DNA from: Prorocentrum cordatum
Lineage: Eukaryota
DNA length: 64,000 nucleotides
Direction of reading: 5' to 3'
Assembly (NCBI GenBank): GCA_963575745.1
Contig: CAUYUJ010000002.1
Span: 1,860,001 to 1,924,000 of the forward strand
In this document: one piece after another, positions 3,633 to 53,747 of the stretch
Numbering within the stretch: position 1 is the first letter of the stretch
How the letters are laid out: every line of letters starts with the position of its first letter
The notes under the pieces: generated by a model
Seen by the model: only the letters and a program-made list of their open reading frames with translations
Databases searched by the model: none
Told to the model about the DNA's origin: nothing
Translations under genes and position numbers: made by a program

Positions 3633-3806
3633 GGGGGGGGGGGGAGGGGGGAGGAGGAGGAGGAGGAGGAGGAGGAGGAGGAGGAGGAGGAGGAGGAGGA
3701 GGAGGAGGAGGAGGAGGAGAGGAGGAGGAGGCGGAGGCGGAGGAGGAGGAGGAGGAGGAAGAGGAGGAGGAGAAGCGCTGAGCAGGGAGCGGGGAGGAGG
3801 GGGAGG
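3633..3806. repeat. G run plus (GGA)n tract
   Basis: Directly visible. Confidence 0.95.
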
Positions 3807-13594: not shown

Positions 13595-14597
13595 GCCAGA
13601 CAGGGAAGTGGGAGTGTAGCGACATACGCAGGTGGTGTTCTTGGGAGGGATCCCAAGGGGACCATGGAAGGACAAAACTACGATAACCAGCGCGTGCGTG
13701 TTGACGGGGCACGGCAGGGGGAGCGGAAGGAAGAGAGGGCAGGGGGCTGTAGCGGCGGGAGGCGAGCAGAGGGAGCACCGAAGCACCGCGTCGGGACAGC
13801 AGAGAAGTTCAATTTGGGGCACGACCTGCACGTCGCGGTGACACCGTTCGGGAACAGTCGGAGCGTAGTCGAAGTTTGATCGAACCACGAGCAGAATACC
13901 ATCAGCACGTGAAGCCCGAACTCTCCCCTCATCTTCCTCCTGCGCAGCCCTTGGGCAATGATTTGCGGTCGTCCAAGCTCGATCAATTTCCTTCTTTCCC
14001 TCTTCATGTTCCCTCTGTCTCTTTCATCGCTCCTGCTCAGCCCCCTCCTCCTCCTCCTCCTCCTCCCTTAAATGAAGTGCCCAGCATCTCACAGACTACA
14101 CACAGTCAACCATATAATAAGGATGGGCAGCCTTCTAAAGGGTACCCTGTGCATCCTTGCCTCCTCGGTCCATCCTTGGCCACTTTCGTTGGCCGCGCCC
14201 CGCTCGAAAAGCGTCGAGATGGGCGCCCAAGGCCCTTGCATCCTTAACGCGCATCCTCACTATACGGGTTGACTGTAGAGCCTTATGCGCAAGCCCTCCC
14301 CGTACTCGTCCACCCCATCCTGCCCTCCGTCTTTCTACTCCCGCCCTCCCTCCGTGCTCCTCCGTCCCGCCCCCCCCCCCTTTCCTTCCCACGCCCCCCT
14401 GGAGGTGTCCCAAGCCCCCCTTCCCTCCCTCGCCCCCCTTCCCTCCCTCCCTCCCTCCCTCGCCCTCCCTTCCCCCCTCGCCCCCTTCCCTCCCTCGCCC
14501 CCTCGGGGTGATGCCCAGAGCGTCAGGAAAGAGCGCTTTGTCTTGAGCGGCGAGGTCGCAGCCCCTGGAGGCGAAGGAGATGCCCCCCCCCCTCGAG

Positions 14598-18062: not shown

Positions 18063-19496
18063 GAACCTCAGAACCCGCCTCTCCTTCCCCCGAGTTTGAT
18101 AAAATTCCGAGTCATGCGAATACCATCCTCCACCTCCTCCTCGTTGCACCACCAGACGTCTCGGTAGCGCGGGCCAGCCGGTTATCCTGAGATTTCTTTA
18201 CCGCCGATGATGTCGAAGTTAGAGTCCGAACAGTTATACAGGCAAAGGGCGATAGTTTTCAAGATGTGGTTCTGGCTTCAGCGCCACGCTCGGGCGTCTT
18301 AAGCGTGTTCGTCTTGATGAAGGTCGGGTGGGCTTCTAAATGTCCATGCCAACATAATTCTGTGCATATGCGTGTGTTAACGGTTTTCAGCAGGTATGCA
18401 GATGGGGGCAGGTCGATTTCAAAATGTGGGTGTCGATGGTGCCACGCATTTCGCAAAGCATCGAAAGCATAACTCCACAAGTTCATAATGCATAGGAGAT
18501 GCAAGGATGAAGGGTGGTTGCTTGGATGTGCGGCTCTCGTGTGAGATGTCTTCGTAAGCATTGGCAGACGTCGAAATTGTGGTTAAAGCTACATGGATAG
18601 ACGGCATCTCTGTTCAAAAATGGGGTTCTCGTTGGATTGTGAGTTGCACCTTCTGATCCTACATCCTGGTACCCCTTCATAGGTAGAAGGCAAAAGGATG
18701 GAAGGCGGCTCATGTTCATAACGGGGTTTTCTCCTCCATGATAGGCTCATGGCGCACTCGTATGTCAAGGGGGTGCTTCCAGCAATTAGTGCAGCGGGAC
18801 TGTTGTGTGGATGTATGACGGGGGACGGGGACTTGAGATGGGAGGGTTCATAGCATCATTGATGCACGTTGGATCTGTGATTGTCCTCTTCCTCCCTCCT
18901 CCTTGCCATTTTCCTCCATATCCTCCTTACCTCAAGTCAAGTCAAGTTAACATCCTTCAAGCTCCCCGTCCCCGTCGTCCCCCCTACAGCCAAAGAATCC
19001 CGCAGACCCCCCCCTGACACGCTCCGCTCGAAACCCCTCCCCCTCCTTTCCCCCCGCTCTCCGCCTCGCAGCACTTCCCCCGGAATCCCCCAGAGCTTGC
19101 CCGATCCCCACCCCCCCAAACACCGCCCGAAATGTCGAAGGGTGAACGTTTTTCATGCATTCTTTTGCCGATCGGCGCGGGCCCTCGCGCCCCCCCCCCC
19201 TGCGGAGTAGATCTAGGCTGTTTTGGGTGCTGGTTTCGAGTCGAGCCAGTGGGTTCTCCCCCATAATGGACGCCTTTTTTGCAAACACTCGCATTAAGCA
19301 GAGGTCTGGAGCCAGACCCCCCCCGTCCCCCCCCCTTCCGCCCAGCGTTCAAACGCCGAATACAAAAAACGTTCAAATGTCGGAAACCGTGCTCGAAGAC
19401 AACCCACCCCCACCCACCTTCCAGGCCCTAGCGGCCCCCTCCAGGCCCTCGCCCTCTCCTCCTCTCTCCTTCCCCGCCCCCTCCTCGAACCACCGG

Positions 19497-19802
19497 CTCC
19501 TCCTCCTCCTCCTCCTCCTCCTCCTCCTCCTGCTGCTCCTCCTCCTGCTCCTCCTCCTCCTGCTCCTCCTCCTCTTCATCCTCTTCCTCCTCCTGCTCCT
19601 CCTCCTGCTCCTCCTCCTGCTCCTCCTCCTCCTGCTCCTCCTCCTTCTGCTCCTCCTGCTCCTCCTCCTGCTCCTCCTCCTCCTCCTCCTCCGCCTCCTC
19701 CTTCTCCGCCTCTCCCCCCTCTTGCTCATCCTTCCTCCTCCCGCCCCCCCTCCTCCTCCTCCTCCTCGAGGAGGAGGAGGAGGAGGAGGAGGAGGAGGAG
19801 GA
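19497..19802. repeat. (CCT/GCT)n tract switching directly to (GGA)n
   Basis: Directly visible; the switch is at CTC|GAG, 19767/19768. Confidence 0.95.
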
Positions 19803-31149: not shown

Positions 31150-34100
31150 TGCACTTCCACGCAGCGCTTGGGGGATTTTGCCGCGGGCGCGCCCCATCAC
31201 CTGCATGCGTCAACGAAAGCAGGGGGGACTTTCGCGATGTCAGCCACTCGTCGCCCATAGAGCAAGCGTCAGCTTTGCCAAACATGCGAATGCAATGACA
31301 AGCTCCTCCTCGCAGATTGCCGCCGCGGCAAGCGCTCCAAGCAGGCGCGGCTACTCTAGCCACGCACCCGCTCCAAGTCGGCTGAACGAGGCGCGCATTT
31401 CGAGGGCGAGACGGCGTCGGGAACCGCGACCCCGCGCAGCGGGGCGAAGGGCGGCCTGAAGAAGAGCCAGGACATCTCGGCGCTGCTCGAGCAGGCGCTG
31501 AAGGCCACCCAGGACACTGAGCTGGAGCAGGTGCTGCAGCAGCAGTCGAGGCGGTTGGCTAGTCAGAACACGAACGCCACGAACAGCGACGCCGCCGATG
31601 CCGCCAAACGTGCTGGCGGTGCCTGGAAGGCCGCCAGGAACCGACGCCGGCAGTTGGTGGACAAGGTGATGAGGTTGCGGCAGCAGCTCAGCATCGCGGA
31701 AAGCAAGGAGAGCGAGGCTGCCGCCCAGCTCGCTCGCGCAGCGGCGGCGAAGACGGCGGCCACGAGGGCTTCGGTGCAGGCCGATGGGAGTCAGCGTTGT
31801 TGCCGCTTCCAACGAGCAAGAGACCAAACCCATGTTCAGCACCACGACGAGCATGGATGTGTTCAGCCCCTTCGAGTCGCGGGACCGCGAGGGGGCGGGC
31901 AAGCGGCAGCTGCGGCCCCTGAAGGCCAAACTAGAGCAGCACAAGGCAGCCATGGAGGAGAAGAGCTCCGCGCGGCAATCTTTCGTCGACAAGGCGAAAC
32001 AGGCGGAGAAAGAGGTCGCCGAGAGGATGGCCGAGAAACGCAAGGGGAACGACGGCGGCGCTCAGGACAGCTCGAGCGCTGCCGCTCCCGAGGCAGCGGC
32101 AGTGGCGGGCCGCGCAGGTTTTTGCAGCGCCGCTAGCCCCGACACCGTCGATCCCGCACAGGAGAAGGCCATCAATAAGGAGGTGGCGAAGATCTCACAG
32201 GCGAGGTTTCAGGCAGCCGCAGCGACCAACAAGGGCAAGGGCACCGAGGGCGGCAAAGGCGCGGGCGCGCTTCCTGCTGCCGACAGCCCAGGCCCCTCCA
32301 GATGACTAGGGGACTCTACGTCGACTACGCAGGCCACGGGTGCTGTGAGTTCGGGGACCACCAGCGCGTGTGCTGGTGCCAGTTCGGGCAGCTTGGGGGC
32401 TGCCATATCTTCGGCTACTTCGCCAGCTACACCTTCTACCTCTGCGGGTGCTGCTGCCGCGGGTTGTACTGCAACTACGACGAGCAGCGACGAACAAGTG
32501 TCGTCACTCTTGTTTCTCGAACATCACGTGTATGGGCGACAGAGCTTGGGGGCATGCCGGCAGGCTCTTGAAGGAAGGGCATTCGTGCACCAGCTTTGGG
32601 CGAGACGCGCACCGACCAGCCGTCGATCAGCAAGTGGCGGCGAAAAGCTCGCGATGGCAATCTCAATCTCTATGACAACGCTGCTCGGTCGAAGAGCAGG
32701 TGGATCAGTTCTACAGGCAGCGCATTTGTCAACGATGGCGGCGAGTTTTTCCTGGTGGCTAGGCACAAGCCAGCTTGCATCTTGGACGAGGCGCGGGCTG
32801 CCCCAGGACTCCGATGGAGCGAGGCAGCTCTTTCGGCGGCTTCGTAGCAGTCTTGCTTGAGCTAAACGGATATTCAGTTGTCGCTTTCACTTGTTTACGG
32901 TCACTCAGCCATAGACATGAAAGATCAGAATGTCACCAGATTTCGGAAGCTTGCGTCTCTCGTAGCTGCCCTCCAGCTTCCGCGGTTAGTTGTTGCAGAT
33001 TGGAATTGCACCCTTGCCCCCTCAACAAGACTGGCTTTCTCGAAAAGACGGGGGACCAACTCTTGCGTTGCGAGGCTGACTTTGCTTGTGCGCCTGGAGG
33101 GGGCCATAAGCCCTCTCACTTAGATGTTGTAGTTGCCGGTGCCGCCGCGCGGCCTTACATTCGCTCAGCGTGTGCCGTGTGCGACGCGTCGTGGCGCCCT
33201 CGCATCGGGCTCCACGTGAGGTTTGTAGGCGCCAGCTCTCAGCTCTATACTCGCGTCTTAGAGTTGCCCCCCAGGCTCCCCAAAGTGGTCCGCCCTGGGA
33301 AGCAGCCAACGGAAGGTTCAAAACCGAACCGTAGCAATGCCAAGCGCGAAGTAGACCGTAGGATAGGCCTAGAGAAGCGCAGTCCGAGAATCCAGGAGCG
33401 GTTCGGAGATGCGCCCACCGTGGATAAACATGTCGAGAGCGACGGGGAGGCGTCGGGGTCAGAAGGGCTCGAGGCCAGCAGCGTCCTTGGCGACAGCAAC
33501 TGGCTGGACCAGTATAACTATGACCCGTGGGCCGACAAGCCCAACTTCGACCCCCTCTAAACCGCGCGCGCCGCCCAGCCTGTCTTTGTTGCTCCTCTTG
33601 CCAGCTCGTCGCAGTCAGTCGCTGAGCCAGCTCGTGCTAATTCGACCCCTTTTAACCCCGAGAGCCCCGATGCGCCCGACAGCGCGGACGCAGGCGCCGT
33701 CCACCCCCGGCAGGCGAGATCGCAGCCCCAGGCCCCTGACACCGCAGGCTCCATCTCAACTGTTGCAGAGAATGAAGCTGAGAAGCCGAATTGCACCGAT
33801 GTCTCGTTCGATGTGCCCGTGGAGACTTGGAGCCAGGCCAGGAAAAGCGGTCGGTTCTCTCCGAACTCTTCCAATAGTATTGCCCTTGCTGTTGCGTCGC
33901 CCGTAGCCTTTCGACTCAGGGCACAGTTGCCCTTTTCAGCGCACATCAGTTCACTTTACTGTAGTTGGCTTCGGTCTGTTGAGTTGGCTACCGACTCACG
34001 CCATCAGCAGGCCCCACCTGCGCTGAGCCGAGGTCAAGCAGTGCAGTTTCGTGTGTGTGTGTGAGGTCCTCCAGTCCAAGCCGCAGCGTATTCAACCTCT

Positions 34101-37100
34101 TCGGGATCGAGTCGCAGGCTGGTGGGCCCGTGCATCGACCATTGTTCATAGCCTCGCCAGTCACCGTCAGCGGCAAAACGGTGATAAGCAGCAGCAAATT
34201 ATCATCGCGGCCGCGCGTGACCTCTTGTCGCAGGACCCAAGGAGAGCCACAGAGTTCTTCGCAGAGGTGATCGTCTCAAGTGGTCCCAATGGCAACCAGC
34301 CCTCAGCCAATTGGGTGAGACCGCGCTGGGCGAACATATGAGGCTTGACAATGACGCAGCACGCATCGCCCGTCGTAGTCAGCAGCGTGCCATTCAACGC
34401 TCACTGCAGGAATTTCGAGAGTGGGCTGAGACAGCACCAGCAGTAGGAGCAGTTCACAAGGCCATTCGTGACCCGGTGCTGCCAGCCGACACTCTTGAGA
34501 TAGGCCCCAGGACGCTGATGCACCCCAAGGATATCATGGACGCTAAATCGGAGAAGTGGGAGCGTCTCTGGGGTCCAGCAGATGATGAGCTTCAGCAGTT
34601 GCAAGGGTTGTTTGTTGACATGCGGCAGCGTATACTAGGTGAGTCGCTCATGCCTCTTGGAGTCCAGGAACTTCGGGAGGCGCTCAGGAGTATGAAGCCC
34701 AAAACTGCCATAGGAATTGATCGAGTCAGCAGTCACGACTTCGACAGATTTTGCCAGATGCAGCTCTTGCAGAGTTAGGCGAGATCCTCACGCTCTGCGA
34801 ACTGCACCAGGTGTTGCCCCATCAGGTGCCCCTCGCGTTGGGCGCCCTCTTGCCCAAGAAGGTGACTGGCGACCGTGTGATCGGGTTGCTATCCCACCTC
34901 GGGCGCGCCTGGTCTCGCGCCCGCGAAGTGCACGTCCGCACTTGGGCGGGCCTGTGCGAGGCGCACTGGGGCGCAGCGGTGCGCGGCAATGCCGCACTTC
35001 GCGAGGTCTTTCTTCGCGCGGTGGACGAATAACTTGCTGTGTGGCACGGCGCTTCAGTTGGCAATGGCATGATCTGATTGACGCAGCGAATTTTTATGAT
35101 ACGGTGGGCTGGTATCGCATGGACAAGGCAGCTCTTCGTCTCCTTTTCCTCCTGAAGTATTAGGCCTCGAACTCCGGAAATGCAGTGCTGCTCGTTGCGT
35201 GCAGTAGTCAGGATCATGCGGCGCCCAATTTTGCGCCGTCGCGGTCCACTGCGCAGGGATTGCGAGGCGGCGCTCGTGTTGGGAAATGTTATACTTATTT
35301 TGTTTTGCAGAGAATCCATACCGCACATGTCAGCATGTTTCATCGGATTAGGGTGGGCGACCTGAGCCAGACAGCGCATGGTTCTCGGGTTGCAGCGAGC
35401 GCGTAATCGCTTAGTTTCGTGCTTAGCAAAAAATTGTGCCGAGCTTGAGCGACATGGCATGGCTGCGTCGCCCAAGTCCGTGGTGCATTGCACTCGCACT
35501 GCGGATGCGCGCGCTGTGGTTCGAAGACTGGCGGCCGAGGGGTACCGCCTCAAAGTGGCCAGTCAGGCAGCTTATCTTGGCGGCGACCTTTCTGGAGGCC
35601 GCCGCCATGGACGCGCCGCGCGCCGTGCCCGAGCGGCCAAGCATCAAGCTACGTCCAAGGAGAATGTGGGCTTCGCACGTGCCACCCGTCGATATCGAGC
35701 GCCATGTCGCTTGGAGCTCCAATGCGCTCAACCCGCAGGCATGCGCGGGCATCAGCTGCATGGGGCGCGGGGTGATCAGTTGCAACGCGTGCGGCGCAAG
35801 TTTGCCAATGGTGCCGGACCCAGGTTGACAGGGCGGTGTGCGACGACATTGCTAGACCTGAAAGCCCCCGACCGCGATCCGCAGTACAAGCTGCCGATGG
35901 ACGCGTTGCGTACGTGGCTGGCTATGTGGTCCTCTCGCCCATCCGTGCATGCAGGAGTTGCCATGCAATGGAAGCAGATAGCCACCGAGTTGGCTGGATT
36001 CACACCCGAGGCACGCTGCCGCAGGATTCGAGGACCCCAGGGAGCTGTCATTGCCTACCTACCCCAGGCAGGCTGGACTCCAGATTCACCTTCAGAGTGG
36101 ACAACCCCTGGCGGCAGCTCGGCCTGGCAGTCCAAGTTCGACAAACTCACTGGCCATTCCGTCCTCGACGTGCCCGAGCCCCTCTTCCTCTAGCACAGGC
36201 AGTCAGTCCAGGCGCAGATGTGGCAGAAGGCGGCTCTACACCACGGTGGTGCTGGCATGGATAACGGAGCGTGCAACTTTTCGTAGAGGAAGCTATTGGC
36301 TCAGTTGGAGCAGGCGCCTGGTGGATCCCGGCTCTCTGGTCAGCTGCTGGCGGCGGCGGGCGCGGCGTGGCCGCGGACGCGTCGCCAGACGCGCTGCCGC
36401 CAGACGTTCCCTGTCCTCTGTCCTAGGTGCAAGCTTGTACCAGAAACAAGTTTTCACGTAATTTTGGGGTGCAGCTGTCAGTCGCAACATCCGATTTTTA
36501 AACTTAGCGAAGATTTAGTTCCCAAGGCCTACGCCCAAGCCGAGGCCGAATAGCGCTTTTGGACCCGCGGTTTAATTCCCAAGGCCTGGATGGAGGCATC
36601 CCCTCCGCCTGAGACGGAATTGTGGGCGACCAGCGACAATTGCAGTTTCGAGTGTCTAGGCACACGTATTTTTGATAGGCCTTTGTTTTTGCTTGGTGAA
36701 GCGAGTGGGGTGAAGATGCCCACCACCCCCTGCTCCGACGAGTAGGCCTCGGAATTGTGTCGTTTCAGCAACTTGACGAACGAATGGAGATTTCTGTAGG
36801 TGCGTGGGGGCACCTCCCTGGCGCCAGGCAAACGATCGCTAGGGGGGAGATTTGGTGCCTCCTAACGTGTTTGCAGCATGTATCAGGGCAGTGTGTGTGT
36901 GCACACCACAGATAGTGACGCAGTCACTGTAGGGTGGTATCAGCGTAAGTGGCTCGACCCCTCGGGCCCTGACGCTGACCTCTGGTGGCGAATAGGGCGT
37001 GTCTTACAAGAGAGAGGGTTCTCGCTTTCTTGCACTGTGTTTTTCGTCCATTTGCACCTTGAGGGTGCCGATATTGTGCGAGGTATAGCGCCCCGCCTCC

Positions 37101-37790
37101 TTGTACTAGGTAATACCATAGCAGATAGTTTCGCAGCGGCTGGTGCAGGTGTTGCCAGGCTTGCCGAGTCCGACCGTGCACGCATACACAGTACCGAGCA
37201 GCAAACTTTCGCAGTTCGCATGCGCATCCTCCAACGCCAACGCACACTCGAGGCCATCCAGGCCGGAAAGCGTATCTTAGCTGATCAGGGTGGTAAGCGC
37301 AGGCGCAAGCAGCAAGTTCCAGATGTTGTTCGGCCTCCAGCGGCCAGCGTGTGTACCATGTTCAGTAGTTATGATAGCCTCAAGGAGAATGCAAATAGCT
37401 GTTCCAGGTGTCAGGGTTTCACATCCTTGGCTCGTAGAAGCGACTGGCTGAGCTCCCCTTGTTTTTCCATAGCTTACGTGGACGGGATTTAATACAGGCC
37501 TCCTCCTGGGCAACGAGTGCATCTTGGGGGGGGGTCACGAATCTCACATTCTGAATAGCCATTCGGGTTTAAACCTAAGTGTGGTTGTTACGCCTCGCAA
37601 CAGCTTCGAGCGTTAGCCGCCAAGTGCGAGGGGGTCGTGTCTGGCAATCGGAAGAATTACGTTGGCAGGATTTCCCGAGGCCTTTGGCTTAAGGTTCGCA
37701 GTACAGCCGAGCTGGCCAGCGGGAAGCGGCAGGGTTTGTAGCCGCTTCAGTCTCTCGTAAGCGACACTGTCGCCACACCCAGAACTCCAG
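31150..37790 (+). mobile_element. Degenerate near-full-length non-LTR retrotransposon: coiled-coil ORF1-like region, AP endonuclease, RT, Cys/His finger, RNase H, C-terminal Cys module
   Basis: Ala/Gln/Lys-rich coiled-coil frames at 31450-32305. VVADWNC (GDWN-like, ~32990). RT: ALRSMKPKTAIGIDRV, LLPKKVTGDRVIGLL, WGAAVRGNAALR, IDAANFYDTV, RVGDLSQ and YLGGDL. Finger: CPRCKLVPETSFHVILGC. RNase H: HTTDSDAV...DADLWWRI...VHLHL...LGNTIADSFAAAGA. C-terminal: KCGCYASQQLRALAAKC. Boundaries are approximate. Confidence 0.9.
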
Positions 37791-37796
37791 AACTCC

Positions 37797-37882
37797 CCGT
37801 CCTCCTCCTCCTCCTCCTCTTCCTCCTCTTCCTCCTCCTCCTCCGCTTCCTCCTCCTCCTCCTCCGCTTCCTCCTCTTCCCC
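37797..37882. repeat. (CCT)n tract between two convergent LINEs
   Basis: Directly visible. Confidence 0.95.
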
Positions 37883-40800
37883 GAGGGTAGCGCGCGCGCG
37901 CGTCCGTGCACGCGCCGCTGACTAGGGGCCCAGGGCCACCACTGAGGTGCGCACCTTAGCCCCCTTCACGTGAGGGACGTAGCCCCCCTCCATGGCCCTT
38001 ATGGCCCGAGCCCCGTGGACCCCTGGCTTTGTGCAGGGTCGGGACAACGATTTGAGCTGCACAGACGTGGCAGCCCCGCAGACCTGGCACCCGACCACCG
38101 CAAAGTGGTGGCGGTCGAACGCCTGGTCCATCACAAAACGCACAAGCTTGTGGCCATTGAGTCCGTCAGCAGTGATCCGACGGTTGGCCTCCACGGCCCG
38201 CGACACGACGGCACCAGGGCACTCCGCCTTCGAGGGCGAAAGAACACGGCACCGCATGCACTACCTGGCCCCCTCGGGGCCGATCAGCTCGCGGCCATGC
38301 TTGGGCAACACCAACTGCAGCACAGGCGCCTTGTTGGGCCTGGCGCCAGGCCTCAACATAACGGTATCTTGAGAAACCACGGAGGCCCCAGCTCGCGCAA
38401 TGAAATGAGCCACGTCCTCGACCAGAACTTGCGCGAGCTGGAATATCTCTCGATCTGCTGCCGCCAGCCTACCTCGGCTGGCCGCGAACTTCGCCCAGAT
38501 GTCGGCCGAGAAATGTCCGAACCGATCGCGGCGAGAAATCCGTCCGCGCTCGACGTCAGCTTCGGAGAGATGGGCACGGACCCTCCGAACCTGGAGCCCC
38601 TGGGGCCCGATCCCTCCAAAGTCCTCCAGGGCGGCCCAGAAAGCACGCCAGAGTTTGGCCCAAGCCGCAGCATAGGTCGTCGTCCCTTGAGGACCACGCT
38701 CTATGCCATCGGTAACAAACTTCGAATCCGTGACCGCACATATGGGTGGAACAGAGACTCGCATCAACTTGACATGTGCGAACAGCTCTGCGCCATCGAT
38801 GTCACGATAGGCGAACGGCAACCTGCCGTGCACCACATCGCTGATTCCCAGCGGGTCAGCTTCATGCAAAGCCACAATCGCCCACCCCGCCGAACTCACG
38901 CCGTCCCACCCCCCATCGAATTGCGAGCCGTCCAAGAAGGCTTCGCAGGCGCACAGGATGCCGCCTCCAGCATGCATCTGCCACGTCTCGCAATCATCAT
39001 CGGGGACTCTGAATGAGTCTGGCACGGGGGGCGATGGCCACAGCCCGCGCTCTAGCAGGCACTTTACCTGCGGGCACGGCAGCCGCGCAAGCAACATCTG
39101 AAACCTGTCGGGCATGGGGGGGCGCTCGCCTTCCGCAAGCTCCCCCTGACACTCGCAGTGACGGTGGGCCCGGGACCCGACCCCAGGGCAGAGGAGACAA
39201 CCAGACGACGCTACGAATCCAGCTTCGCGCTTCCTCGCCATCGGCCACTGCCCATTAATCAACACACTCCTAAGATACGCACGCTCCTGCAAGGCCAAAC
39301 TGCCTAGGTCTCTACACTGGTGGCCCTGGGGCCGCGAACCTTTCAGAAGTCGAAGTAGAGGCGCCATCACAGCACCTTTGCCCAGATGTTCGCACCCTTC
39401 AGCACCAGCAATCTCGGCCCACTGCCAGGCCTCAATCCCGCGGACCAGGAGTTTCCTGAGGTACCAGACCGAGACGTCCCGAATATCCACAGAAACTCCA
39501 TTGTGCGTAACCCAGGTGAGCGCATCATGGTCCGAGAACTTCCAGGAGATCCGATCGAGGGACAGCTTGACGGCCCCGAAGGGCCCCTGGACCCGGGACC
39601 ACATCTGAACCTTCTTGGCCGCCAGGAGCCCGTCCGACACGACCTTCACGGGGATCCAAGCTTCCCACAGAGCACGCGCGAGAGCAAGGACTGGGAGCAG
39701 TGTGGCCCGAAAAATCGGATCGAGCTCCTTGCCCAGCATGAGCGCCATCGTCCTGGACTTACCTGCGCCATGCCTCTCGATCGCCGAAAACATGAGACTT
39801 CGAATCGAATCCAGCTCCGTAGCCGAGGTACCTGTCACCGAAGCCCCATAGGACTGCACGCGCCACAAGCTGAGCCGCCACTCTCTTACGGGGTCCACAG
39901 CAAAACCTCAGAATACGACGTATTTTCGACCGCGCCGAACGAAGTCGTTTATGTCTGACCCGTCGAAGCACACGACGCCCACAGGTGAAATCAACTCCGA
40001 GGTTTCTTTCATGTCTGGGCGCCTGGGCTCCGATGCGAGCAAGTTGCCGAGCAATATCCGAACGCACCTCGCTGCTGCTTGACATCACACGCGTCTTGTC
40101 ATCATGTAGCTGTAGTTGACACACATCCAGTTCACGTTGTAGCGCCTCGGACGCCTGAACTATTTCTCGAGTGACGACCTTACTCGACCCAATTCTATGT
40201 ATAATGATAGCATCAACCACCACACACGGAGCCACCGACCGTCCTAATAACCATACTCGATCGAGAGGTTGGCGTAGGGCAAGCTTGAGGAAAGTGGTGG
40301 CCCATCCGTCGCCAGACAAGATGGTCTGATCGACCTGCAGCTCGTCCGAGACCACGGTGCCGAGGGTGAGGAACCTCGGCGCTCTGAACAATAGAACCTG
40401 GAGCCGCAACTGCCAGCGGGGGAATCCTGTTCTCAACGCCGCCTCCAGGAGCCAATGGCGCTGAACCTGTTCGAATGCTTTCAGGAGGTCCATCATCACC
40501 TGGGCCGACGTCCATAGGCCCGCCTGGGCCCCTTTGCCTTTCACCCTGGTCCATTCGGACCACGCCGACTGTTGCCACGCGGCCCGCTCACACGACTTCC
40601 CAGGGGCAGCCCAGAAATAATGCCGAGCATTCTTCACCTCCCACTCTTTCGCGATGGGCATTCTCAATCTGGCTTGGACCCTGGCGACGACATGGAGCAG
40701 CGCGATGGGGCGGACCCCGCCCAATCGCTTGGCCAAAAACGCAATCTTCGTAACCAGCATCGGCCACTCGGCCGCGGCCTCGATGGCCGTGATCAGGTCG

Positions 40801-43800
40801 ATCAAACCGACCGCGGAGTCGCACAACTCGCGTAGCTGCCTCGGCCTGACGGCGCAGAACCCCATTCCAGACATGGCCTTGAAGGACCTCAGGACCCTGC
40901 GCATGTAGTCGAGCGTCGGCCGAGGGGGCCTCTCCCCAAGATCCCCAGGCCAGCTAAATATGGGATGCTTCTCCCCCAGCTTCCACCAGCGACTCCAAGT
41001 TTTCTGCAACTTGTCAACCTCTTGCTGCTTATTGAGGGGCTTGGTGGGGTCCTCAGGGTCCACGGAGCTACTCTGCCAGCCTTGGGGGTCCTTACAAAGC
41101 GCGTGGAGCCCACCGGCACCTCCCGCAGACTGCTCCGAGACCCACCTCCTGAATTTATCAGCACGCCGTTGCAAATCACGTCGGGCCACGCGTGAGGCAC
41201 CTCTCTTGATCTCCTGACTCATGACGTAGACCACCTTCGGGTCCAGGTCCCAGACGGGGAGGAAGGTAACCAGGGCCCACCAGAGGTGCCAATGGAAGGG
41301 CCGCCCAGTCGAACACATCCAGGAACATCCCGAACCAGTTTGCCCACCGCTCGAAGCGCATTGACCCGTGTAATTGGTTGTCCCACCTGAGAGGCAAACG
41401 ACATCGATGCACCCTACTTCCGCAACCAGATGGCCTCGGGGGACACCTTCGGGTACTTCGGCGGCAGGGGGGGCTGAGAGCGAACCCACTTAGGACGAGG
41501 AAGCTGCGCTCTGCCGAGATGTTTCGAGCGGTCTTCTGCAACTTGGTATACGTCACGCCACTCGTGCTCCGCTGCACTGATGAACATCTCCCATCCCTTG
41601 GATAATTCCCCAGCTCCTCCTGATCCCGTAGGCATGCTCTGACGAACCTGCTCCCACAGATCGTTGAAGTCGGCCGAGGCACACCCTGACGGGTGAACTG
41701 CTGGAAACGGTCGTGGCACCGGCATGACACGCATCCACGGCTGGCTCAAACCCGACTTCAAATCCAAGGAGACAGCCGTGTGGGGACTCATCGGGATTGA
41801 AGGCTCCGTCTGCACTTGGGTCGGTACCAGGTGGCTGGAGACGAGGAAGAAATCAATCACACGACAAGCTGGTGCACATGTGCCCACCTGTGGGGCCCAC
41901 ACCGAAAACGGCAGAAAATCAAAGATATCAGCCTTTTGCAACTCCTGCGGGGTGGCATTGAAGTCGCCTCCGATGATGAACGGCTTGCCTATACATCGCA
42001 CACGCTCGGCGATGTCCAGCAGAAGACTAACATTGTCAGGCGACATACCCTGCCCCGCATGCAAGGAGACATTCACCACGACAATGCCCTGCTTCGCAAA
42101 GCCAGAATGACATGATATTGATGCTCTTCCTGGTGCAATATGGCCGTTCTACCATCTTCCACGAGCCCAAGGCCATGTCGAGCAGGTACAAGCGTGAGCA
42201 GCCCGCCAGATCCAGGTAGACCATGCTCACACCCGACTGCAGGGAGAGCGAACGCATGCCATCCAGCTTTGACTAACTTACCGACTGCGTCGTCGCCCTG
42301 GCGCTGCCCCAAGTGGGTTTCTTGCACAAAGATCAAATCTGCCTGTCTAACCAAATCCATCTCCAACAGCGGTTCGAGACTGGAGTAAGCATTCACGTTC
42401 ACCGTCAGCACCTTCCACTTGAACTCACGCTGGAAGCCGTCCACCGACACTGGGCCTGTCGTTCCCGAAGGAGGCTGAGCATCAGTCGACGACCTCCCCT
42501 GGGAGGCGCGGGGGCTGGCCGTCGCTCCCCCCTCCCCCGCCTGGCCGCTGCAGCCTGGCGGTTTGAATCCATCACGAAGCGGAATCCCGTGTACATCGTC
42601 GCCTGAGCCTGGGGCAATGTCAGCAGGCGGCTGCCCCCAACGCCCTGACCCAGAAAGACGCGGTCCAACAAAGCTTGCCTTCCCTCGAGTGCGACAGCCC
42701 CGCGTGAACGCAGCGCCCGATGGGATGGTGCAGTCAGGGCGGATAGAACCTGAAGGCCCCTAGTGGTTCAAGCTGGATTGTCGGAAAGACCGAGGATATT
42801 CTCCAGCAAAGAGGGAAGATGACAAACTACCCCCTCTGAGCAAGGGCTAACCTACTCATGCTTCGCATAGTCACCCACTGTGCCACAAGGCGGGCCTGAG
42901 GACAAAGACGAGGCCAGCGGGCCCAAACAACCCTTGCAACACTAGACTTACCTCTCATCCCGATACATCGCTCAAGCTCTGTGCGGGGGAGGCGGTGTCC
43001 CTCGAAACCCATAGAGATAGGGTCCGGGACCTCAGAATGAAGGAAACTCAAGTAATCTTCCTCTCTTCTGAGCAGGGGCTAACGTACTCATGCTTCGCAT
43101 ATCCTTTTTGGGTTTCTCTTGGGACCCGCTCGGGTCCTCCCATTGCTGGGTGGGGAATGCCCATACCTGTCCATTGACAGGGATGGACATTTTAGCTTTA
43201 GGTTATTTGGCACCGTCAGTGCCGTAGGTGAAGAAAGGGGATGCCCATGCCTGTCCATCGACAAGGATGGGTAGCCTAGCTTTCGGCCCTGGGGTGGAGA
43301 CCAACACCTGTCCATCGACAGCGGTCGGCATCCAGATCCTATTTGATACCGCCATTGCCAAAGGCTGCAGTTGTCGCTATGTTAGCATGGCCTTTTTCGC
43401 GGCCATTGCGCGAGCCATGACCTTCCCACGGCGACCCTGCCTTCGAGGGGCCAAGCCCGCACCAGTGCACGCTGTGCACGCGGCCGGGGTCAGAACCCTC
43501 GCCGCTGAACCATACTAACACAAGTGTCCGGTGGCCTTGTTTACGGGTCCCCTAATGCCGAATGGGCCCGCGCCCAAGCAGTAAACACCCCCGCCGGAGC
43601 CCTTGACCCCCGCCGATGTGCTAACGCCTGAACTCGTGGCTGCAGCCGGGCCCGTGCAACTCCGCGAGACCCGAGTTTGAGCTCTTGCCGCGGCCGAAGC
43701 ACGCGGCACCACTCAATCGGGCTTCGCACCATGCACGACCAGGGCCCATGACCCCACCGCTATGCCTGTCCCTCCCCCAGTCTGCTGCGGTCGGCGGCCA

Positions 43801-44047
43801 TGGAGTGCGCCCTCGCCTGTGACCAAACAAAAGCCTGAGTGGCTGTTAGGAGAAGGGAGGGGTTGGAAGGCTCCTCAGCTCCTGGAGATGGGGTCGAGAG
43901 CCATGACAGACAGTGCGCAGGCACCGTCTTGCGACCCACGCCCAGCCGAGCACCGCTGGGATTTGCACAGCCGTCAAACACCACCCCTCTGTCAGGTCTT
44001 GGCACCGAGGCCAAAACCTCGCTCTGTCAGAACGCGGCATGTGAGAC
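37883..44047 (-). mobile_element. Relatively well preserved non-LTR retrotransposon (AP endonuclease-RT-Cys/His-RNase H-Cys module) with a ~1.6-kb non-coding leader
   Basis: Overlapping minus-strand ORFs give the domains in order. The unit lies between two (CCT)n tracts. Assigning 42451-44047 to the element is inferred from position. Confidence 0.88.
37922..42450 (-). pseudogene. Frameshifted pol ORF of the minus-strand LINE
   Basis: 42450-42073: VLTVNVN, DLIFVQETHL, SGGL. 42079-41414: IIGGDFNATP, IDFFLVS, SPHTAV. 41489-39759: FLAKRLGGVRPIALL, DLLKAFEQV, TILSGDGWAT, VVDA (YxDD position), RNLGVDF. 39898-38261: CLLC..HRHCEC, FLDGS, GAELFA, VTDSKFV, VRAHL, GHFSADIWAK. 38257-37922: GHKL...CQVCGA...LSRPC. 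Confidence 0.93.
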
Positions 44048-44945
44048 TCCTCTGCCTCCTCCTCCTCCTCCTCCTCCTCCTCCTCCTCCTCCACGTCCAT
44101 GGGGGGGGGATGGGGAGGAGGGAGGGATTGGAACCATGGGGGGGTGGGATTGGAGAGGAAGGAGAAGGTTTGTTGAGGCTGGGGATGATGCCGCCGAAGC
44201 GGTTTTCGGCCCTCTGAGGGCTTGAGAGGGAACCAAGGAGAAGGAGGAGGAGGAGGAGGAGGACGAGGAGCAGAGACGGCGACGACCGATGACCGACAGA
44301 CCCCCGACAGCGCAGGTCAGCTCCCCCGGGCGGCGCGACGCGCCCTTCGGCCAGTGGCCCTCGTCCAACGGCCGCGCGCAACGCGCCCGCCCTCTCGGCA
44401 CCGGCGGCCCTCCCTCGTCATCCTCGCGGTCGCCGCCGTCCAGGATGGAAGACTCCAGCTATCAAGATGGAGGACTTTCGTCCTCGTCCTCCTCCTCCTC
44501 CTCCTTCTCCTCCACCTGCTTCTCCTTCTCTTCGTGCTCTCCCTCCTCCTCCTCCCGCTCCTCCTCCTCCTCCACCTCCTCCTCCTCTTCTTAGTTGATG
44601 CCCCGGTCCGATTTTGTCCTGGCCCTGGCTTCGTTTCGGAGGCGCGCGCCCCTGGCTTCGCGGTTGGCGGCAGGTCGAGGCTCCTAAACGTTTGGCAGCG
44701 TCTTTTAGTGCCCAGCCTCCGGGGCACCCGCGGGGGCCCCCTGCTCTGGACGGGGCAAAGTTCGCCCCCCCTTAGCTCCGCTGGGGGGGGGTTGGGCACG
44801 TGCTGTCGGAATGGGTGGAGGGGTTGGAGGAAGAGGAGAAGGAGGAGGAGGAGGAGGAAGAGCAGGAGGAGGAGGAGGAGGGGGAGGAGGAGGGGGAGGA
44901 GGGGGAGGAGGGGGAGGAGGAGGAGGAGGAGGAGGAGGAGGATGG
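44048..44945. repeat. Alternating (CCT)n and (GGA)n tracts separated by short unique spacers
   Basis: CCT at about 44048-44093, GGA 44238-44270, CCT 44478-44591, GGA 44826-44945. Confidence 0.9.
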
Positions 44946-45229
44946 AGAGGGGCGAGATTCGGGCAGTCAGAAGGTGAATCACCCCCCCCTTGATAGATAA
45001 CCCATTCACAGTAGTGTGACAGCCGTCTTCCATTCGGAGGATGATCGAATCTCCACCCTGCCAAGTCGACCAGCGAATCGTCCCGCTCCGGTTCCCGAGG
45101 GGGCGCTGCGGCCACATTCTTTGCAGGACTGCGCCCGCCAGGTCTGGTCCGGAGTCGTGTTCTCCAGACGGGTGGTTTGGTCAAGGGAGCTCTGTTTGCG
45201 ACCCATATAACCGAAGTTTATCCGACGAT

Positions 45230-45377
45230 GGCATCTATACACCACCCCCGTGCCAGGCCAGGGCCATCCTGGGCCCTGGGATGGTGCATAGACCCTCCTG
45301 GCCTCTGCCAGGGGGCTTATACATTATGCCAGGGCCAGGATGGCCCTGGCTTGACACGGTGGTGGTGTATAGATGCC
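45230..45377. mobile_element. 148-bp fold-back (MITE-like palindrome)
   Basis: The left arm GGCATCTATACACCACCCCCGTGCCAGGCCAGGGCCATCCTGG... is the near reverse complement of the right arm ...CCAGGATGGCCCTGGCTTGACACGGTGGTGGTGTATAGATGCC, with a CTCT loop. Confidence 0.75.
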
Positions 45378-45964
45378 TCATGCGTAAGGTGTTGCCGATT
45401 CTCAATAATCCCCAGTAGTTCCAGGAGAGCTTACCATGTGATGGGCGTCTCCCTCCGAGCCCGTGGGGCCGCAGCACGTGGAGCGAGCCTCCCACGGGGC
45501 GCACAGCCCTGTGACAGCTTGCGTTGCGTCAATCTTCCTGTGCCGAAGCGGGCTGCGCGTTGAATCCGCAGCGCGCGTCGCTTCCTTCCTACTGCTTGCC
45601 TTCCCATTCCCCTCCTCCTCCCCCAGCCATTCAACTATTCAACTTCAACTATTTGGCCAAGTACTTCGTTCTAGGGCAGACCCCATCCTCTACGAGCATG
45701 CTCAGTCGCACCTGGTGCCCTTGTGCCGCTCACGAGCAAAGAGGTCCCGCGTATGGGAGGGAGCTCGTGCCCGAAATGTTGGAGCATCGTGGTCGCATTT
45801 TTGGACGCATTGTGAAAGGCGTTGACGTTGCATCTTCGCCTGTGGCGTGGGGCCACGCGTTGAAGAGGGCCTTGCTGTCCTGTCCACGCACCGCCCGGTG
45901 TACGACTAGCCAGCCAGTCCCCCAGCTTTTTCACTCCGCGTGTCCATGTCGTCACACTCCTCAA

Positions 45965-47190
45965 TCGTTTCGTGCCCCCGTCAGTAACTCAACCTGCGGT
46001 CTCAATGCGCGCCGATGCATGGCGCCACCGCCCCCATTTCGGCCCACCCCTCACGAAAAGCGCGGCACCAGAAGGGGCTCCACCTGCGGTATCAGTGGTC
46101 GCCGACGCATGGAGACACCGCACAATAGTTGGCACACCCCGCACAAGGATCGCGGCCCAGCCCAGTAGGGTGCTCCCCCTACTGTCCCAGTGGGCGCCTA
46201 CGCAAGGCGCCACCGCGCCCATGTCGGCACACCCCTCACGAAGAGCGTGGCATCAGAGGGGGATCCACCACCGGTCCCAGTGAGCGCTGACGCATGGCAT
46301 CACCCAGCCTATTTAGGCACCCCCCGCACGAAAACCGTGGCCCTGCAGGGAGCCCCCCCTGCGATCTCTGTGGGCTCCGACGAATGACGGCACCGCACCC
46401 ATTTCGGCACACCTTTCACGAGGACTGTGACCCTACGGGGAATTTTACCATGTGTATCAGCGGGCGCAGACGCATGGAAGCACTTCGCCAAGTTTGGCAC
46501 ACACCGCACGAGAACCGTGGCCCCATATTGAGTTCCACCCACGATCTCAGTGGGCGCCGACGCATGTCGGCAATGCGCCCAGTTCGGCACACCCCTGACT
46601 GGGATCCTGGCCCCATAGAGAGCTCCACATAGGGTCCCAGTGTGCTCAGACGCTCGGCGCCACCGCGCACATTTCGGCGCACCCTTCACGAGGACCGTGG
46701 CCCCCATGGGGAGTTCCACCGACGGCCTCAGCGGGCGCAGACGCATGGCCGCAGCGCGACCTTTTAGGCACGTCCCGCAAGAGAACCATGGCCCCATAGG
46801 GAGCTCCATCTACGGTCTCAGAGGGCGCCTGCGCATGGCGGTACCGCGGCCCTTTCGGCACACCAGGATCGTGGCATATGGAGTTCCACCTACTGTGTCA
46901 GCGGGTGCAGATGCATGGAGACACCGCGCAATAGTTGGCACCCCCCTCGCGAAAACCGCGGCCCCATTGGGAGCTCCACGCCCCCGTCGCGAGCTCCACG
47001 CGTGGCTCTAGTGTGCCAGTTCGCACGGCGGCGCCGCCCCGTCAGGACCGTGGCCCCATAGGGAGTTTCACCTACGGTCCCAGTGGGAGGGTCCGCACGG
47101 CGGCACCGCGCCCATCTCGGCACACCCGTCACGAGGGCCGTGGCGCCATTGGGGGCTCCACCTCGGGCGTCAGTGGGAGTCAATGGATGC
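45965..47190. repeat. Minisatellite, ~90-bp unit, about 13 copies
   Basis: A unit like CGCCGACGCATGGCGCCACCGCGCCCATTTCGGCACACCCCTCACGAGGACCGTGGCCCCATAGGGAGCTCCACC..TCAGTGGG recurs near 46010, 46099, 46195, 46285, 46376, 46465, 46555, 46645, 46736, 46826, 46906 and onward. Confidence 0.95.
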
Positions 47191-52657: not shown

Positions 52658-53747
52658 GTCGGCTCAAGATGGCCCAGAGACGGCTCAAGATGGCCCCGAG
52701 ACGGCGGGTTTGAATAATTGGGGCCGCGGTTCGTTAAATCAGCGGGCGCCGCGTTCAAACTTGCAAAGTTAGTGGGGCGAGAGCGTCATTTTGAACGCGA
52801 CCCGCCCTCCACCCGTGGAATTGTTGCCCTGAATGCCCCGAACCTCACTGAGGAGGAGGAGGGCGGGGGAGGGGGAAATGACGGAGGAGGAGGAAAGGGG
52901 GGGATATGTTGCACGTGTTCGGAGGAGAACGGATGGCGCGGAGGCGCCTCGCGCGATCAAGGTTGAACGCGCCGCGGGGTCCCATCTCGGGCCCCAGTGC
53001 TCGCAGGCACGGGGTCGCTGCGCGAAGTCTCCATCTTCGGGATCGAACGCTCCGCGCGGTGTCGGAAACCGCCGTCCGACGATCGGCGTTCTGGATCGAG
53101 CATGCTGGACTTCTTTGAGGCTGTCAAGAAGATAAACCAGCCTCCGCGGAGGCAGTTGTCGCGCTTCGCGATGGCGCAGCTCCCGTCGGCGGCGCCGATC
53201 GCGAAGGATCTCGAGGCGCAGCCGCCCGCGGCGGCGACCACGGCGGCGGCGTCGGGCGCGGTGAGCGTTGCCAGTTCGGCTGCGCCCACGCCGCAGGCCG
53301 CGCCGCCGCGGGCAGCCGCGCCGCCGCAGGCGGCCGCGCCGCCGCCCGCGGCCTCGCCGCCGCCAGAGGCGGCTGCGGCCTCGCCGCCGCCTGCACAGGC
53401 GGCGGCCACGCTCCGAAACGGCACGTCGACGCAGGCCATCTCCATTCGTCGCCGTCGTCGTCGTCGCCCTCCCCCGTCGTTCCGGCCCCGAGAACGAAGA
53501 CGAGATCGTCGTCGTCGCCGTCGTCGTCGGGGCCGCGGGCGGCGGCGAGGCCGCCGCCCGCGGCTCCGACGCCGCCCGCTGCCCACCAGGCTGCCGACGA
53601 CGACGCGCCCGAGCCCGAGCAGAAGCGGGCCAGGGTTCAGGAGACGCTCGAAGAGGCGTTGGCGCCCCTGTTGGACCGCCGCCGCCCCGCGCGCGGAGGG
53701 GGTCTCAGGGGTGGGGGGCTCGCCGACATCGCCCCCGTCATCGACGC

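What the first reader, a model, noticed from the sequence alone, without database searches (positions are those of the whole stretch)
42451..44047. LINE with no recognisable ORF1 but a ~1.6-kb densely structured RNA leader
Seen on the element's sense (minus) strand: no long protein-like ORF, but many hairpins. These include TGCCGCG-T-GC-TTCG-GC-CGCGGCA (cUUCGg loop, 43686-43708), TCC-TTCG-GGA (~42463-42472), GTC-GCAA-GAC (GNRA, ~43926-43935), GGACCCG/CGGGTCC (43122-43137), ATGGCC/GGCCAT (~43387-43406) and CCCAGC/GCTGGG (43941-43960), plus the repeated motifs listed separately. Several mismatches read as G-U pairs only on the sense strand. The related plus-strand LINE has a coiled-coil ORF1-like region at this position. 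Established: some LINE leaders hold HDV-like ribozymes or IRES-like elements. Inference: a large, possibly undescribed structured RNA (translation, self-processing or RNP scaffold) standing in place of ORF1. I could not fit it to a known ribozyme fold.
Basis: partly seen in the sequence, partly recalled or inferred. Interest (0 to 1): 0.7.

Follow-up and report, generated by a model that had tools for sequence, protein, structure and literature searches.

The report
Noncoding leader of a dinoflagellate LINE
The stretch is the non-coding front end of a broken copy of a jumping gene (a LINE) of dinoflagellate type; it holds a few real local hairpins, one of them repeated three times, but shows no sign of being one large folded RNA.

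Summary
The element on the minus strand is a degenerate non-LTR retrotransposon. It has one pol ORF (endonuclease, RT, RNase H) at 42759-37922, broken by three frameshifts and one in-frame stop. Its closest relatives carry Prorocentrum/Polarella (dinoflagellate) names. The leader 42760-44046 is non-coding: stop density is as in random sequence, there is no codon periodicity and no Pfam hit. The proximal 42466-42759 is probably an N-terminal extension of pol, not leader.

"Densely structured" holds only in part. Simple stems are not more frequent than in shuffles (28 against 22.4±3.3). 776 of 1597 nt fold like shuffles. Only 43040-43860 folds better (z -3.5 and -3.2 on the sense strand), a level that 4 of 46 control strand-blocks of this window also reach. 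Real local features are a 28-38-nt hairpin present three times, with three double changes that keep pairing, and a 66-nt cUUCGg-capped hairpin. Neither is clearly strand-specific. Rfam gives no ribozyme or IRES match.

Leader segments occur in several non-identical copies in another data set. Their DNA could not be fetched, so covariation across copies and linkage of the distal leader to pol are untested.

Verdict: an ordinary LINE 5'UTR with local stem-loops.

The parts
44046..44099 (-). (GGA)n-type microsatellite directly upstream (5') of the leader on the element's sense strand
   Evidence: TRF 44047-44092, period 3; minus-strand GGA tract 44046-44099
42760..44046 (-). Non-coding leader, the presumed 5'UTR of the LINE. 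There is no ORF, no codon periodicity, and stop density is as in random sequence.
   Evidence: Several non-identical copies of parts of it exist in run X1: 2-4 contigs carry another letter at each of 42763, 42802, 42821, 42871, 42875 and 43322 (table 3).
43663..43728 (-). 66-nt imperfect hairpin of 26 bp capped by a c-UUCG-g loop.
   Evidence: -41.4 kcal/mol, z -3.72 on the minus strand; -36.1, z -5.21 on the plus strand. It is therefore an inverted repeat that is not strand-specific.
43296..43333 (-). Repeated hairpin unit A (core CUGUC-GAUG-GACAG with an outer stem)
   Evidence: -19.9 kcal/mol, z -3.89. At 43322 all 4 covering X1 contigs and the 1 covering X2 contig carry the letter that restores the sixth inner pair (table 3).
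43244..43271 (-). Repeated hairpin unit B
   Evidence: -16.9 kcal/mol, z -2.14; the plus strand folds slightly better, -17.8
43156..43191 (-). Repeated hairpin unit C
   Evidence: -21.5 kcal/mol, z -4.77
43067..43101 (-). 35-nt direct repeat, copy 1 (94% identical to 42835-42869)
   Evidence: It does not fold better than shuffles (z +0.48).
42835..42869 (-). 35-nt direct repeat, copy 2
   Evidence: z +0.37
42466..42759 (-). Probable N-terminal low-complexity extension of pol. The frame is continuous with the endonuclease, with 98 codons and no stop (about 3.3 expected). This copy has no in-frame ATG.
   Evidence: A transcriptome-derived protein, P0027, translates the same frame (aligned to 42759-42589).
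41650..42465 (-). Apurinic-type endonuclease domain of pol, split by a frameshift near 42139
   Evidence: (Exo_endo_phos, E 1.5e-5). An extra C after 42139 is present in 2 of 2 covering X1 contigs (table 4). P0015 reads through the break in one frame.
39771..41255 (-). Reverse transcriptase region of pol
   Evidence: (46% and 44% identity to P0001 and P0002). RVT_1 is only weak in the window copy (E 0.0031, below the Pfam cut-off).
37922..39850 (-). C-terminal part of pol, including the region aligned to the RNase H of relatives. There is an in-frame stop at 38261-38263 and the final stop is at 37922-37924.
   Evidence: RNase_H in P0001, P0002 and P0006
37792..37880 (-). (GGA/GAA)n microsatellite beginning 41 nt after the pol stop. 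It is either a 3' tail or the other half of a microsatellite target site.

Best explanation
42760-44046 is the non-coding 5' untranslated leader of a degenerate copy of a single-ORF non-LTR retrotransposon (endonuclease, RT, RNase H) of a dinoflagellate-type family. 42466-42759 is probably the N-terminal extension of pol.

The leader is not one large fold. It holds a handful of local stem-loops within 43040-43860: a hairpin unit present three times and a 66-nt UUCG-capped hairpin. By inference, they act as ordinary LINE 5'UTR elements. They could be repeated units of an internal promoter or protein-binding palindromes in the DNA, or local RNA hairpins that affect translation or recognition of the transcript by its own pol protein.

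Shown: non-coding nature, the local hairpins, the broken pol, and that leader segments are multi-copy. Inferred: that the whole leader up to 44046 belongs to the element, and any function.
For: Element and family. Pol homology runs from 42465 to 37952 in frames -2, -1, -3, -1. Exo_endo_phos is found in the window copy. Relatives carry Exo_endo_phos, RVT_1 and RNase_H. Members of the relatives' clusters are named Prorocentrum cordatum / Polarella glacialis. P0001's called product starts at the endonuclease and P0002's has about 50 residues before it.

Non-coding. Stops are 14/13/8 per frame against 14.4 expected. Codon-phase GC is flat. There are no Pfam hits. Searches with two leader ORFs found no protein.

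Proximal part is linked to pol. The frame is open from 42759 into the endonuclease, and P0027 is in the same frame.

Multi-copy. At each of six leader positions 2-4 X1 contigs carry a letter other than the window's. An X2 contig is identical over 42764-43003 (tables 3 and 8).

Both ends abut (GGA)n in the same orientation: 44046-44099 and 37792-37880. Such tracts cover 3.7% of the window.

Structure is local only. Sense-strand block z-scores are -0.14, -3.51, -3.18 and -0.07. The stem count is not above shuffles. Rfam gives nothing.
Against: No contig or protein seen here bridges the distal leader (upstream of about 42820) to pol, so its membership in the element is inferred.

P0032 shares 42576-42430 (69% amino-acid identity) but has unlike sequence on both sides. 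This could mean that this segment also occurs away from the endonuclease.

Block 43540-43860 folds better on the sense strand (z -3.18) than on the antisense strand (z -0.50). The three hairpin units keep pairing through 3 double changes, with 89.6% of 48 cells paired against 33-44% in slid controls. Both hint at selection on RNA structure, more than 'ordinary UTR' strictly requires.

A Prorocentrum gene model, P0016, has 357 residues (Cys-rich, then coiled-coil-like) before a related endonuclease. Some relatives may therefore have an ORF1-like part.
Confidence: 0.6

Rival explanations
1. A functional structured RNA domain of about 0.8 kb (43040-43860, sense strand) acts in cis in an ORF1-less LINE. 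It could be a binding platform for the pol protein, or it could allow translation of pol far from the 5' end. It would consist of the tripled hairpin and the UUCG-capped hairpin.
For: Sense-strand z is -3.51 and -3.18, with 0 of 100 shuffles as stable. Antisense z is weaker, -2.31 and -0.50. Three pairs of the repeated hairpin change on both sides and still pair. 4 of 43 paired cells are G-U, which would be mismatches on the other strand. In other copies the one broken inner pair of unit A is restored (43322; all 4 covering X1 contigs and the 1 covering X2 contig). Only 4 of 46 control strand-blocks of 400 nt reach z -3.1 or lower.
Against: With three sequences the shuffle control is weak: 50-64 of 500 shuffles reach the observed values. 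Unit B and the 66-nt hairpin fold as well or better by z on the antisense strand, as plain DNA inverted repeats would. The leader's z-scores do not differ from those of pol (p 0.25), and the strand asymmetry over the leader is not significant (p 0.27). No Rfam family matches. No alignment of copies was available.
Confidence: 0.15
2. The distal leader is not part of this LINE. The LINE copy is 5'-truncated or begins near 42820, and what lies upstream is another repeat family or target DNA, possibly a short hairpin-bearing repeat array.
For: No bridging record was seen. GC drops from 0.67 (42750-42451) to 0.53-0.55 (43350-42751). P0032 shows the proximal segment in another context. Other repeated DNA lies close by: many X1 and X2 contigs lie at 45236-45500 and at 37000-37567.
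Against: The leader is bounded on the far side by the same microsatellite, in the same orientation, as the 3' end, as expected for one insertion. Leader and pol segments both occur as diverged multi-copy contigs in the same run. The hairpin motif occurs nowhere else in the 64 kb: 3 good matches, all in the leader, against 0.1 expected.
Confidence: 0.2
3. The leader is a decayed ORF1.
For: The copy is decayed: three frameshifts and one stop in pol. A related gene model, P0016, has an N-terminal Cys-rich and coiled-coil-like part.
Against: Pol keeps long open pieces (189-576 codons) and, in most 300-nt windows, codon periodicity despite its lesions. The leader has stop density as in random sequence in all three frames and no periodicity. 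tblastn of P0016 finds nothing in 42450-44050 at E 0.01 or better. Pfam finds nothing.
Confidence: 0.03

Closest known systems
Single-ORF endonuclease-RT-RNase H LINEs of dinoflagellates (proteins P0001 and P0002 found here; cluster members named Prorocentrum cordatum / Polarella glacialis)
   Same: 44-46% identity over the RT ORF. Same domain order. The called pol product begins at or about 50 residues before the endonuclease.
   Different: The window copy is broken by three frameshifts and one stop. The relatives' upstream DNA could not be fetched, so it is unknown whether they share this leader.
R2 elements: a single-ORF LINE whose protein binds structured RNA at the 5' and 3' ends, with an HDV-like ribozyme at the 5' end (recalled knowledge, not from a call)
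   Same: No ORF1; RNA structure in the untranslated parts has been proposed to serve the pol protein.
   Different: R2 has a restriction-like endonuclease and a site-specific target. No HDV-like ribozyme model matches here.
Mouse L1 5'UTR monomers: tandem repeats with promoter activity (recalled knowledge)
   Same: Short units repeated in the 5' leader of a LINE: 3 units with start-to-start spacing of 84 and 57 nt.
   Different: The units here are much shorter, only three in number, not a clean tandem array (TRF finds none) and palindromic. Promoter activity is untested. L1 has an ORF1.
Stem-loop recognition signals of 'stringent' LINEs, e.g. the eel UnaL2 3' stem-loop (recalled knowledge)
   Same: Short conserved hairpins in a LINE untranslated region as possible handles for the RT.
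   Different: Those lie at the 3' end, where reverse transcription starts. These lie in the 5' leader.

Membership tests
Non-LTR retrotransposon (LINE) with endonuclease-RT-RNase H pol | Apurinic-type endonuclease domain | tested here: met
   Exo_endo_phos, E 1.5e-5, 25.3 bits against a cut-off of 24.5, on 41414-42148
Non-LTR retrotransposon (LINE) with endonuclease-RT-RNase H pol | Reverse transcriptase domain | tested here: met
   RVT_1 is only weak in the window copy (E 0.0031, below the cut-off). However, the ORF is 44-46% identical over 80-86% of its length to P0001 and P0002 (E 7.5e-119 and 8.6e-107), and P0002 and P0006 match RVT_1 weakly (18.9 and 27.5 bits, below the 29.6 cut-off).
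Non-LTR retrotransposon (LINE) with endonuclease-RT-RNase H pol | RNase H domain after the RT | tested here: inconclusive
   RNase_H was found in P0001, P0002 and P0006, and the window aligns through that part. Pfam gave no family on the window's own ORF 38261-39907.
Non-LTR retrotransposon (LINE) with endonuclease-RT-RNase H pol | Defined ends: 3' tail and target-site duplication | tested here: inconclusive
   (GGA)n lies at both ends in the same orientation. No unique duplication was identified.
LINE ORF1 protein (coiled coil/RRM or zinc-knuckle type) | An open reading frame upstream of pol with protein-like features | tested here: not met
   Stops are 14/13/8 per frame against 14.4 expected, and the longest open run is 97 codons. 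There is no periodicity, no Pfam family and no homologues.
Self-cleaving ribozymes of retrotransposon 5' ends (HDV-like, hammerhead, twister) | Match to the family covariance model | tested here: not met
   cmscan of 36000-46000 at E up to 1 gave no match within 42451-44046; all 21 matches lie outside it, 17 of them on the flanking microsatellite at 44047-44274. cmscan of 42400-44050 at E up to 10 gave 6 matches, all far below gathering scores and none a ribozyme. No hand-made descriptor search was run.
Self-cleaving ribozymes of retrotransposon 5' ends (HDV-like, hammerhead, twister) | Self-cleavage | not testable with these tools
   Needs in vitro transcription and a cleavage assay.
IRES-like leader elements | Match to a curated IRES family, or internal initiation in a reporter | tested here: not met
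   No Rfam IRES family matched. Reporter activity is not testable here.
Conserved structured RNA (any new family) | Folding energy beyond dinucleotide shuffles | tested here: inconclusive
   Met for 43040-43460 and 43540-43860 (z -3.51 and -3.18). Not met for 42451-43039 and 43861-44047. 4 of 46 control strand-blocks reach the same level.
Conserved structured RNA (any new family) | Covariation across homologous copies | tested here: inconclusive
   Only three paralogous units inside the leader could be compared: 3 of 16 pairs change on both sides, and 50-64 of 500 shuffles do as well. No other copies could be fetched.

The most novel reading that the evidence does not exclude
The central 0.8 kb of the leader (43040-43860) is a sense-strand RNA domain built from a tripled hairpin and a long UUCG-capped hairpin. 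In a dinoflagellate LINE family that lacks ORF1, it would do part of ORF1's job. It would hold the transcript for its own pol protein (cis preference), or let pol be translated from a long leader in an organism whose normal mRNAs receive a trans-spliced leader.
Probability: 0.1. Interest if true: 0.6.

Novelty: new member of a known kind. Interest (0 to 1): 0.25.

Why it matters
If the ordinary reading holds, this adds little: one more LINE with a long non-coding 5'UTR that carries repeated units and hairpins, in a group (dinoflagellates) whose retroelements are poorly described.

It would matter if family-wide alignments showed that the tripled hairpin and the UUCG-capped hairpin are conserved with covariation. 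How single-ORF LINEs secure their own RNA without an ORF1 chaperone is known in detail only for R2. Dinoflagellates also have unusual mRNA biology (spliced-leader trans-splicing), so a cis RNA element in their LINEs would be a testable handle on both questions.

Tried and rejected
Own genome: none is held.

Other copies of the element or leader:
- The search for related loci with the RT alignment found no confirmed locus in metagenome contigs (593 pattern matches) or in viral contigs (46 pattern matches).
- Exact-pattern scans with leader motifs gave 0 matches in metagenome contigs, viral contigs and prokaryote genome contigs.
- Protein searches with leader ORFs 43088-43381(-) and 43681-44217(+), residues 1-122, gave no hit.

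Sequencing runs. No RNA holder is listed. All four runs laid are contigs. Their summed word depth falls along the leader towards 44100, but the tool states this is no copy number, so I did not use it. Thin cover at 43816-44667 is no evidence. One X1 contig skips 43876-44134 with 28 letters on the shorter side (table 5). That is too weak to place the 5' end.

Other searches:
- Spliced-leader relic: 0 matches with up to 3 mismatches in the window.
- tRNA or SINE head: none in 36500-45500.
- Bacterial promoter/terminator scan: not applicable to a eukaryote and ignored.
- The 2-mismatch motif match at 54415 has unrelated flanks.
- The 35-nt direct repeats do not fold better than shuffles.
- Earlier findings of the scan: nothing by place, sequence or words.

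Literature. Two searches listed no paper on the 5' regions or ORF1 of dinoflagellate LINEs among the 15 and 8 papers shown. Of PMC11453091 and PMC10666404 I read only the passages returned by term search. These gave the 59.7% G+C of Prorocentrum cordatum and the abundance of inverted-repeat 'introner' elements, and nothing on LINE leaders. Their supplements were not opened.

One script call returned no answer. Its saved results were read.
Full report
WHAT IS THERE

The window is about 60% G+C and no genome is held for it. On the minus strand lies a non-LTR retrotransposon. tblastn of the two closest full-length relatives, P0001 (1479 aa) and P0002 (1545 aa), aligns them from 42465 down to 37952 in four pieces in frames -2, -1, -3, -1. 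The RT ORF is 46% and 44% identical to them, with E 7.5e-119 and 8.6e-107.

The window copy therefore has three frameshifts, near 42139-42157, 41255-41348 and 39771-39850. It also has an in-frame stop at 38261-38263, and the final stop is at 37922-37924. The first frameshift is a lesion of this copy. 2 of 2 covering contigs of run X1 carry an extra C after 42139 (table 4). A transcriptome-derived protein, P0015, reads through the break in one frame.

Pfam finds Exo_endo_phos in the window copy (E 1.5e-5) and only a weak RVT_1. The relatives carry Exo_endo_phos, RVT_1 and RNase_H in that order. Members of the relatives' clusters are named Prorocentrum cordatum and Polarella glacialis by NCBI. 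The window's G+C equals the 59.7% reported for P. cordatum (PMC10666404, passages only). This is a dinoflagellate-type LINE. That the window is dinoflagellate DNA is an inference.

THE OBSERVATION

Two of them are only 3-bp stems.

The leader has no ORF. In 42760-44046 the three sense frames hold 14, 13 and 8 stops per about 429 codons, against 14.4 expected from composition, and the longest open run is 97 codons. Pol, although broken, keeps open pieces of 189-576 codons.

GC by codon phase differs by 0.08-0.35 in the 300-nt windows within pol (0.13-0.35 in all but two) but only by 0.04-0.07 in the windows between 43950 and 42751. Pfam finds nothing in 5 of 5 sense ORFs that overlap the region. 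The leader is therefore non-coding and does not look like a decayed ORF1.

The proximal 42466-42759 is different. It is open in the endonuclease's frame (98 codons, no stop, about 3.3 expected). A transcriptome-derived protein, P0027, translates the same frame and starts with M about 20 codons further upstream. It is probably an N-terminal extension of pol.

IS IT 'DENSELY STRUCTURED'?

Simple perfect stems of 6 bp or more (G-U allowed, loops of 3-10) number 28 on the sense strand, against 22.4±3.3 in 200 dinucleotide shuffles; 16 of 200 reach 28. For 7 bp or more the count is 12 against 11.3. The antisense strand gives 21 against 16.8±3.1. The list of hairpins is therefore about what chance gives.

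Folding energy by block, sense strand:
- 42451-43039: z -0.14; 43 of 100 shuffles as stable.
- 43040-43460: z -3.51; 0 of 100.
- 43540-43860: z -3.18; 0 of 100.
- 43861-44047: z -0.07; 89 of 200.

On the antisense strand the two middle blocks give z -2.31 and -0.50.

In 200-nt windows, 4 of 14 leader windows reach z -3.4 or lower on the sense strand and 0 of 14 on the antisense strand. Elsewhere, 5 of 94 strand-windows do (33 background and 14 pol windows, both strands).

The leader's window z-scores are marginally lower than background (Mann-Whitney p 0.04; 0.07 and 0.12 using every second window). They are not different from pol (p 0.25), and the strand difference is not significant (Wilcoxon p 0.27).

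Among 23 control blocks of 400 nt, 4 of 46 strand-blocks reach z -3.1 or lower. They fall in 3 blocks, 2 of which overlap microsatellite tracts.

So about half of the region (43040-43860) folds better than shuffles, at a level seen in roughly one tenth of control blocks. The other 776 nt do not.

THE LOCAL FEATURES THAT ARE REAL

(a) A hairpin unit occurs three times, at 43296-43333, 43244-43271 and 43156-43191, with start-to-start spacing of 84 and 57 nt. Its 16-nt core has 3 matches with at most 1 mismatch, all in the leader, against 0.1 expected in the whole window. A 2-mismatch match at 54415 has unrelated flanks.

Each unit folds into 11-15 bp (-19.9, -16.9 and -21.5 kcal/mol; z -3.9, -2.1 and -4.8). 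When the three units are aligned and scored for a 16-pair hairpin:
- 43 of 48 cells pair (89.6%), against 33-44% when the partners are slid.
- 3 pairs change on both sides and still pair.
- 4 paired cells are G-U.
- With three sequences the shuffle control is weak: 50-64 of 500 shuffles reach these values.

The one broken inner pair of unit A is a lesion of this copy. At 43322 all 4 covering X1 contigs and the 1 covering X2 contig carry the pairing letter (table 3).

It scores -41.4 kcal/mol, z -3.7.

Neither feature is clearly strand-specific. Unit B folds slightly better on the antisense strand, and the 66-nt hairpin has z -5.2 there. As far as these data go, they behave as DNA inverted repeats that would also fold in RNA.

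(c) A 35-nt direct repeat at 42835-42869 and 43067-43101 is 94% identical. It does not fold above chance.

KNOWN RNA FAMILIES

cmscan of 36000-46000 at E up to 1 gave 21 matches, none within 42451-44046; 17 lie on the flanking microsatellite at 44047-44274. None reaches its gathering score. cmscan of the leader alone at E up to 10 gave 6 matches with E 2.7-8.5, none a ribozyme or IRES. No tRNA-like head was found, and no spliced-leader relic.

DOES THE LEADER BELONG TO THE LINE?

Evidence for:
- The frame is continuous from 42759 into the endonuclease.
- Parts of the leader are multi-copy and diverged, like pol, in the same run. Of the X1 contigs, 565 were laid at 80% likeness or more. At 42763, 42802, 42821, 42871, 42875 and 43322, 2-4 X1 contigs carry a letter other than the window's.
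- A contig of the metagenome run X2 is identical over 42764-43003 (table 8).
- Both ends of 37881-44045 abut (GGA)n tracts in the same orientation, at 44046-44099 and 37792-37880. The latter begins 41 nt after the pol stop. Such tracts cover 3.7% of the window. This fits one insertion into, or tailed by, that microsatellite. The 5' limit was itself chosen at the microsatellite, so only the 3' tract is independent evidence.

Evidence against or open:
- No record seen bridges the distal leader to pol.
- The 278-aa protein P0032, from a 1087-nt contig, shares 42576-42430 at 69% identity with unlike flanks.

I put the leader's membership in the element at about 0.75-0.8.

ORF1 IN THE FAMILY

P0001's called product starts at the endonuclease, and P0002's has about 50 low-complexity residues before it. 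Their starts are gene-caller calls on contigs of 5796 and 4852 nt and may not be the true starts.

The all-against-all representative search with the junction ORF 42073-42759 gave 23 hits. 21 of them align only from about query residue 98 onwards, that is, to the endonuclease. Two (P0027, P0032) align to the upstream part.

One Prorocentrum gene model, P0016, has 357 residues before a related endonuclease: Cys-rich, then coiled-coil-like by eye. It may be a spliced gene model, and it has no match in the leader.

It shares no detectable similarity with this element.

CONCLUSION

The best reading (0.6) is the non-coding 5'UTR of a decayed single-ORF dinoflagellate LINE with a few local stem-loops. 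Their role is inferred only: internal promoter units or protein-binding palindromes in DNA, or local RNA hairpins.

A functional structured RNA domain of about 0.8 kb remains possible (0.15). It has small points in its favour: the sense-strand bias of block 43540-43860, the double changes in the tripled hairpin, and the restored pair in other copies.

That the distal leader is foreign to the element has 0.2. A decayed ORF1 has 0.03.

The decisive test is an alignment of many family copies with R-scape and a count of leader-pol linkage. It needs the source genome, which none of the collections searched here supplied.

Noticed in passing
window 34353-35029 (+), with 31360-32305 (+) upstream: A second, distant and heavily decayed LINE. 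An RT fragment matches P0004, P0005, P0006 and P0011 at 26-38% identity in two frames. ORFs rich in charged and heptad-like sequence lie 2-3 kb upstream. There is no similarity to the minus-strand element.
   Followed up: partly
window 45236-45500: A short stretch on which very many contigs of runs X1 and X2 lie, with many loose ends at 45230-45386. It is probably a high-copy repeat just upstream of the microsatellite-rich flank.
   Followed up: no
window 37000-37567: DNA just beyond the element's 3' microsatellite is also covered by several diverged X1 contigs. A weak plus-strand match to the LINE protein P0003 lies nearby at 37580-37681 (E 0.009). Possibly another repeat.
   Followed up: no
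whole window: (GGA)n-type microsatellites are very frequent and strand-biased: 2379 nt in 35 tracts read as GGA on the minus strand, against 654 nt in 12 tracts on the plus strand. They produce spurious miRNA-family matches in Rfam at 44047-44274.
   Followed up: partly
proteins P0015, P0027 and P0013: Transcriptome proteins filed in EukProt under a Pyramimonas (green alga) label are 77-83% identical to this dinoflagellate-type LINE, or cluster with Prorocentrum/Polarella proteins. The label or the culture may be mixed. It also shows that the family, including the leader-proximal part, is present in RNA-derived data.
   Followed up: no
protein P0016 (Prorocentrum cordatum gene model): 357 residues precede a related endonuclease. 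They begin with a Cys-rich stretch that looks like a small zinc finger (judged by eye and recall), followed by a coiled-coil-like part. This could be an ORF1-like module in a sister family or a fused gene model.
   Followed up: partly
window 3300-3700, 17100-17500, 19400-19800, 53200-53400, 14100-14300, 7300-7500: Control blocks with folding z of -3.4 to -5.4 outside the element. Some overlap microsatellites and others do not. Inverted repeats seem common in this genome.
   Followed up: no
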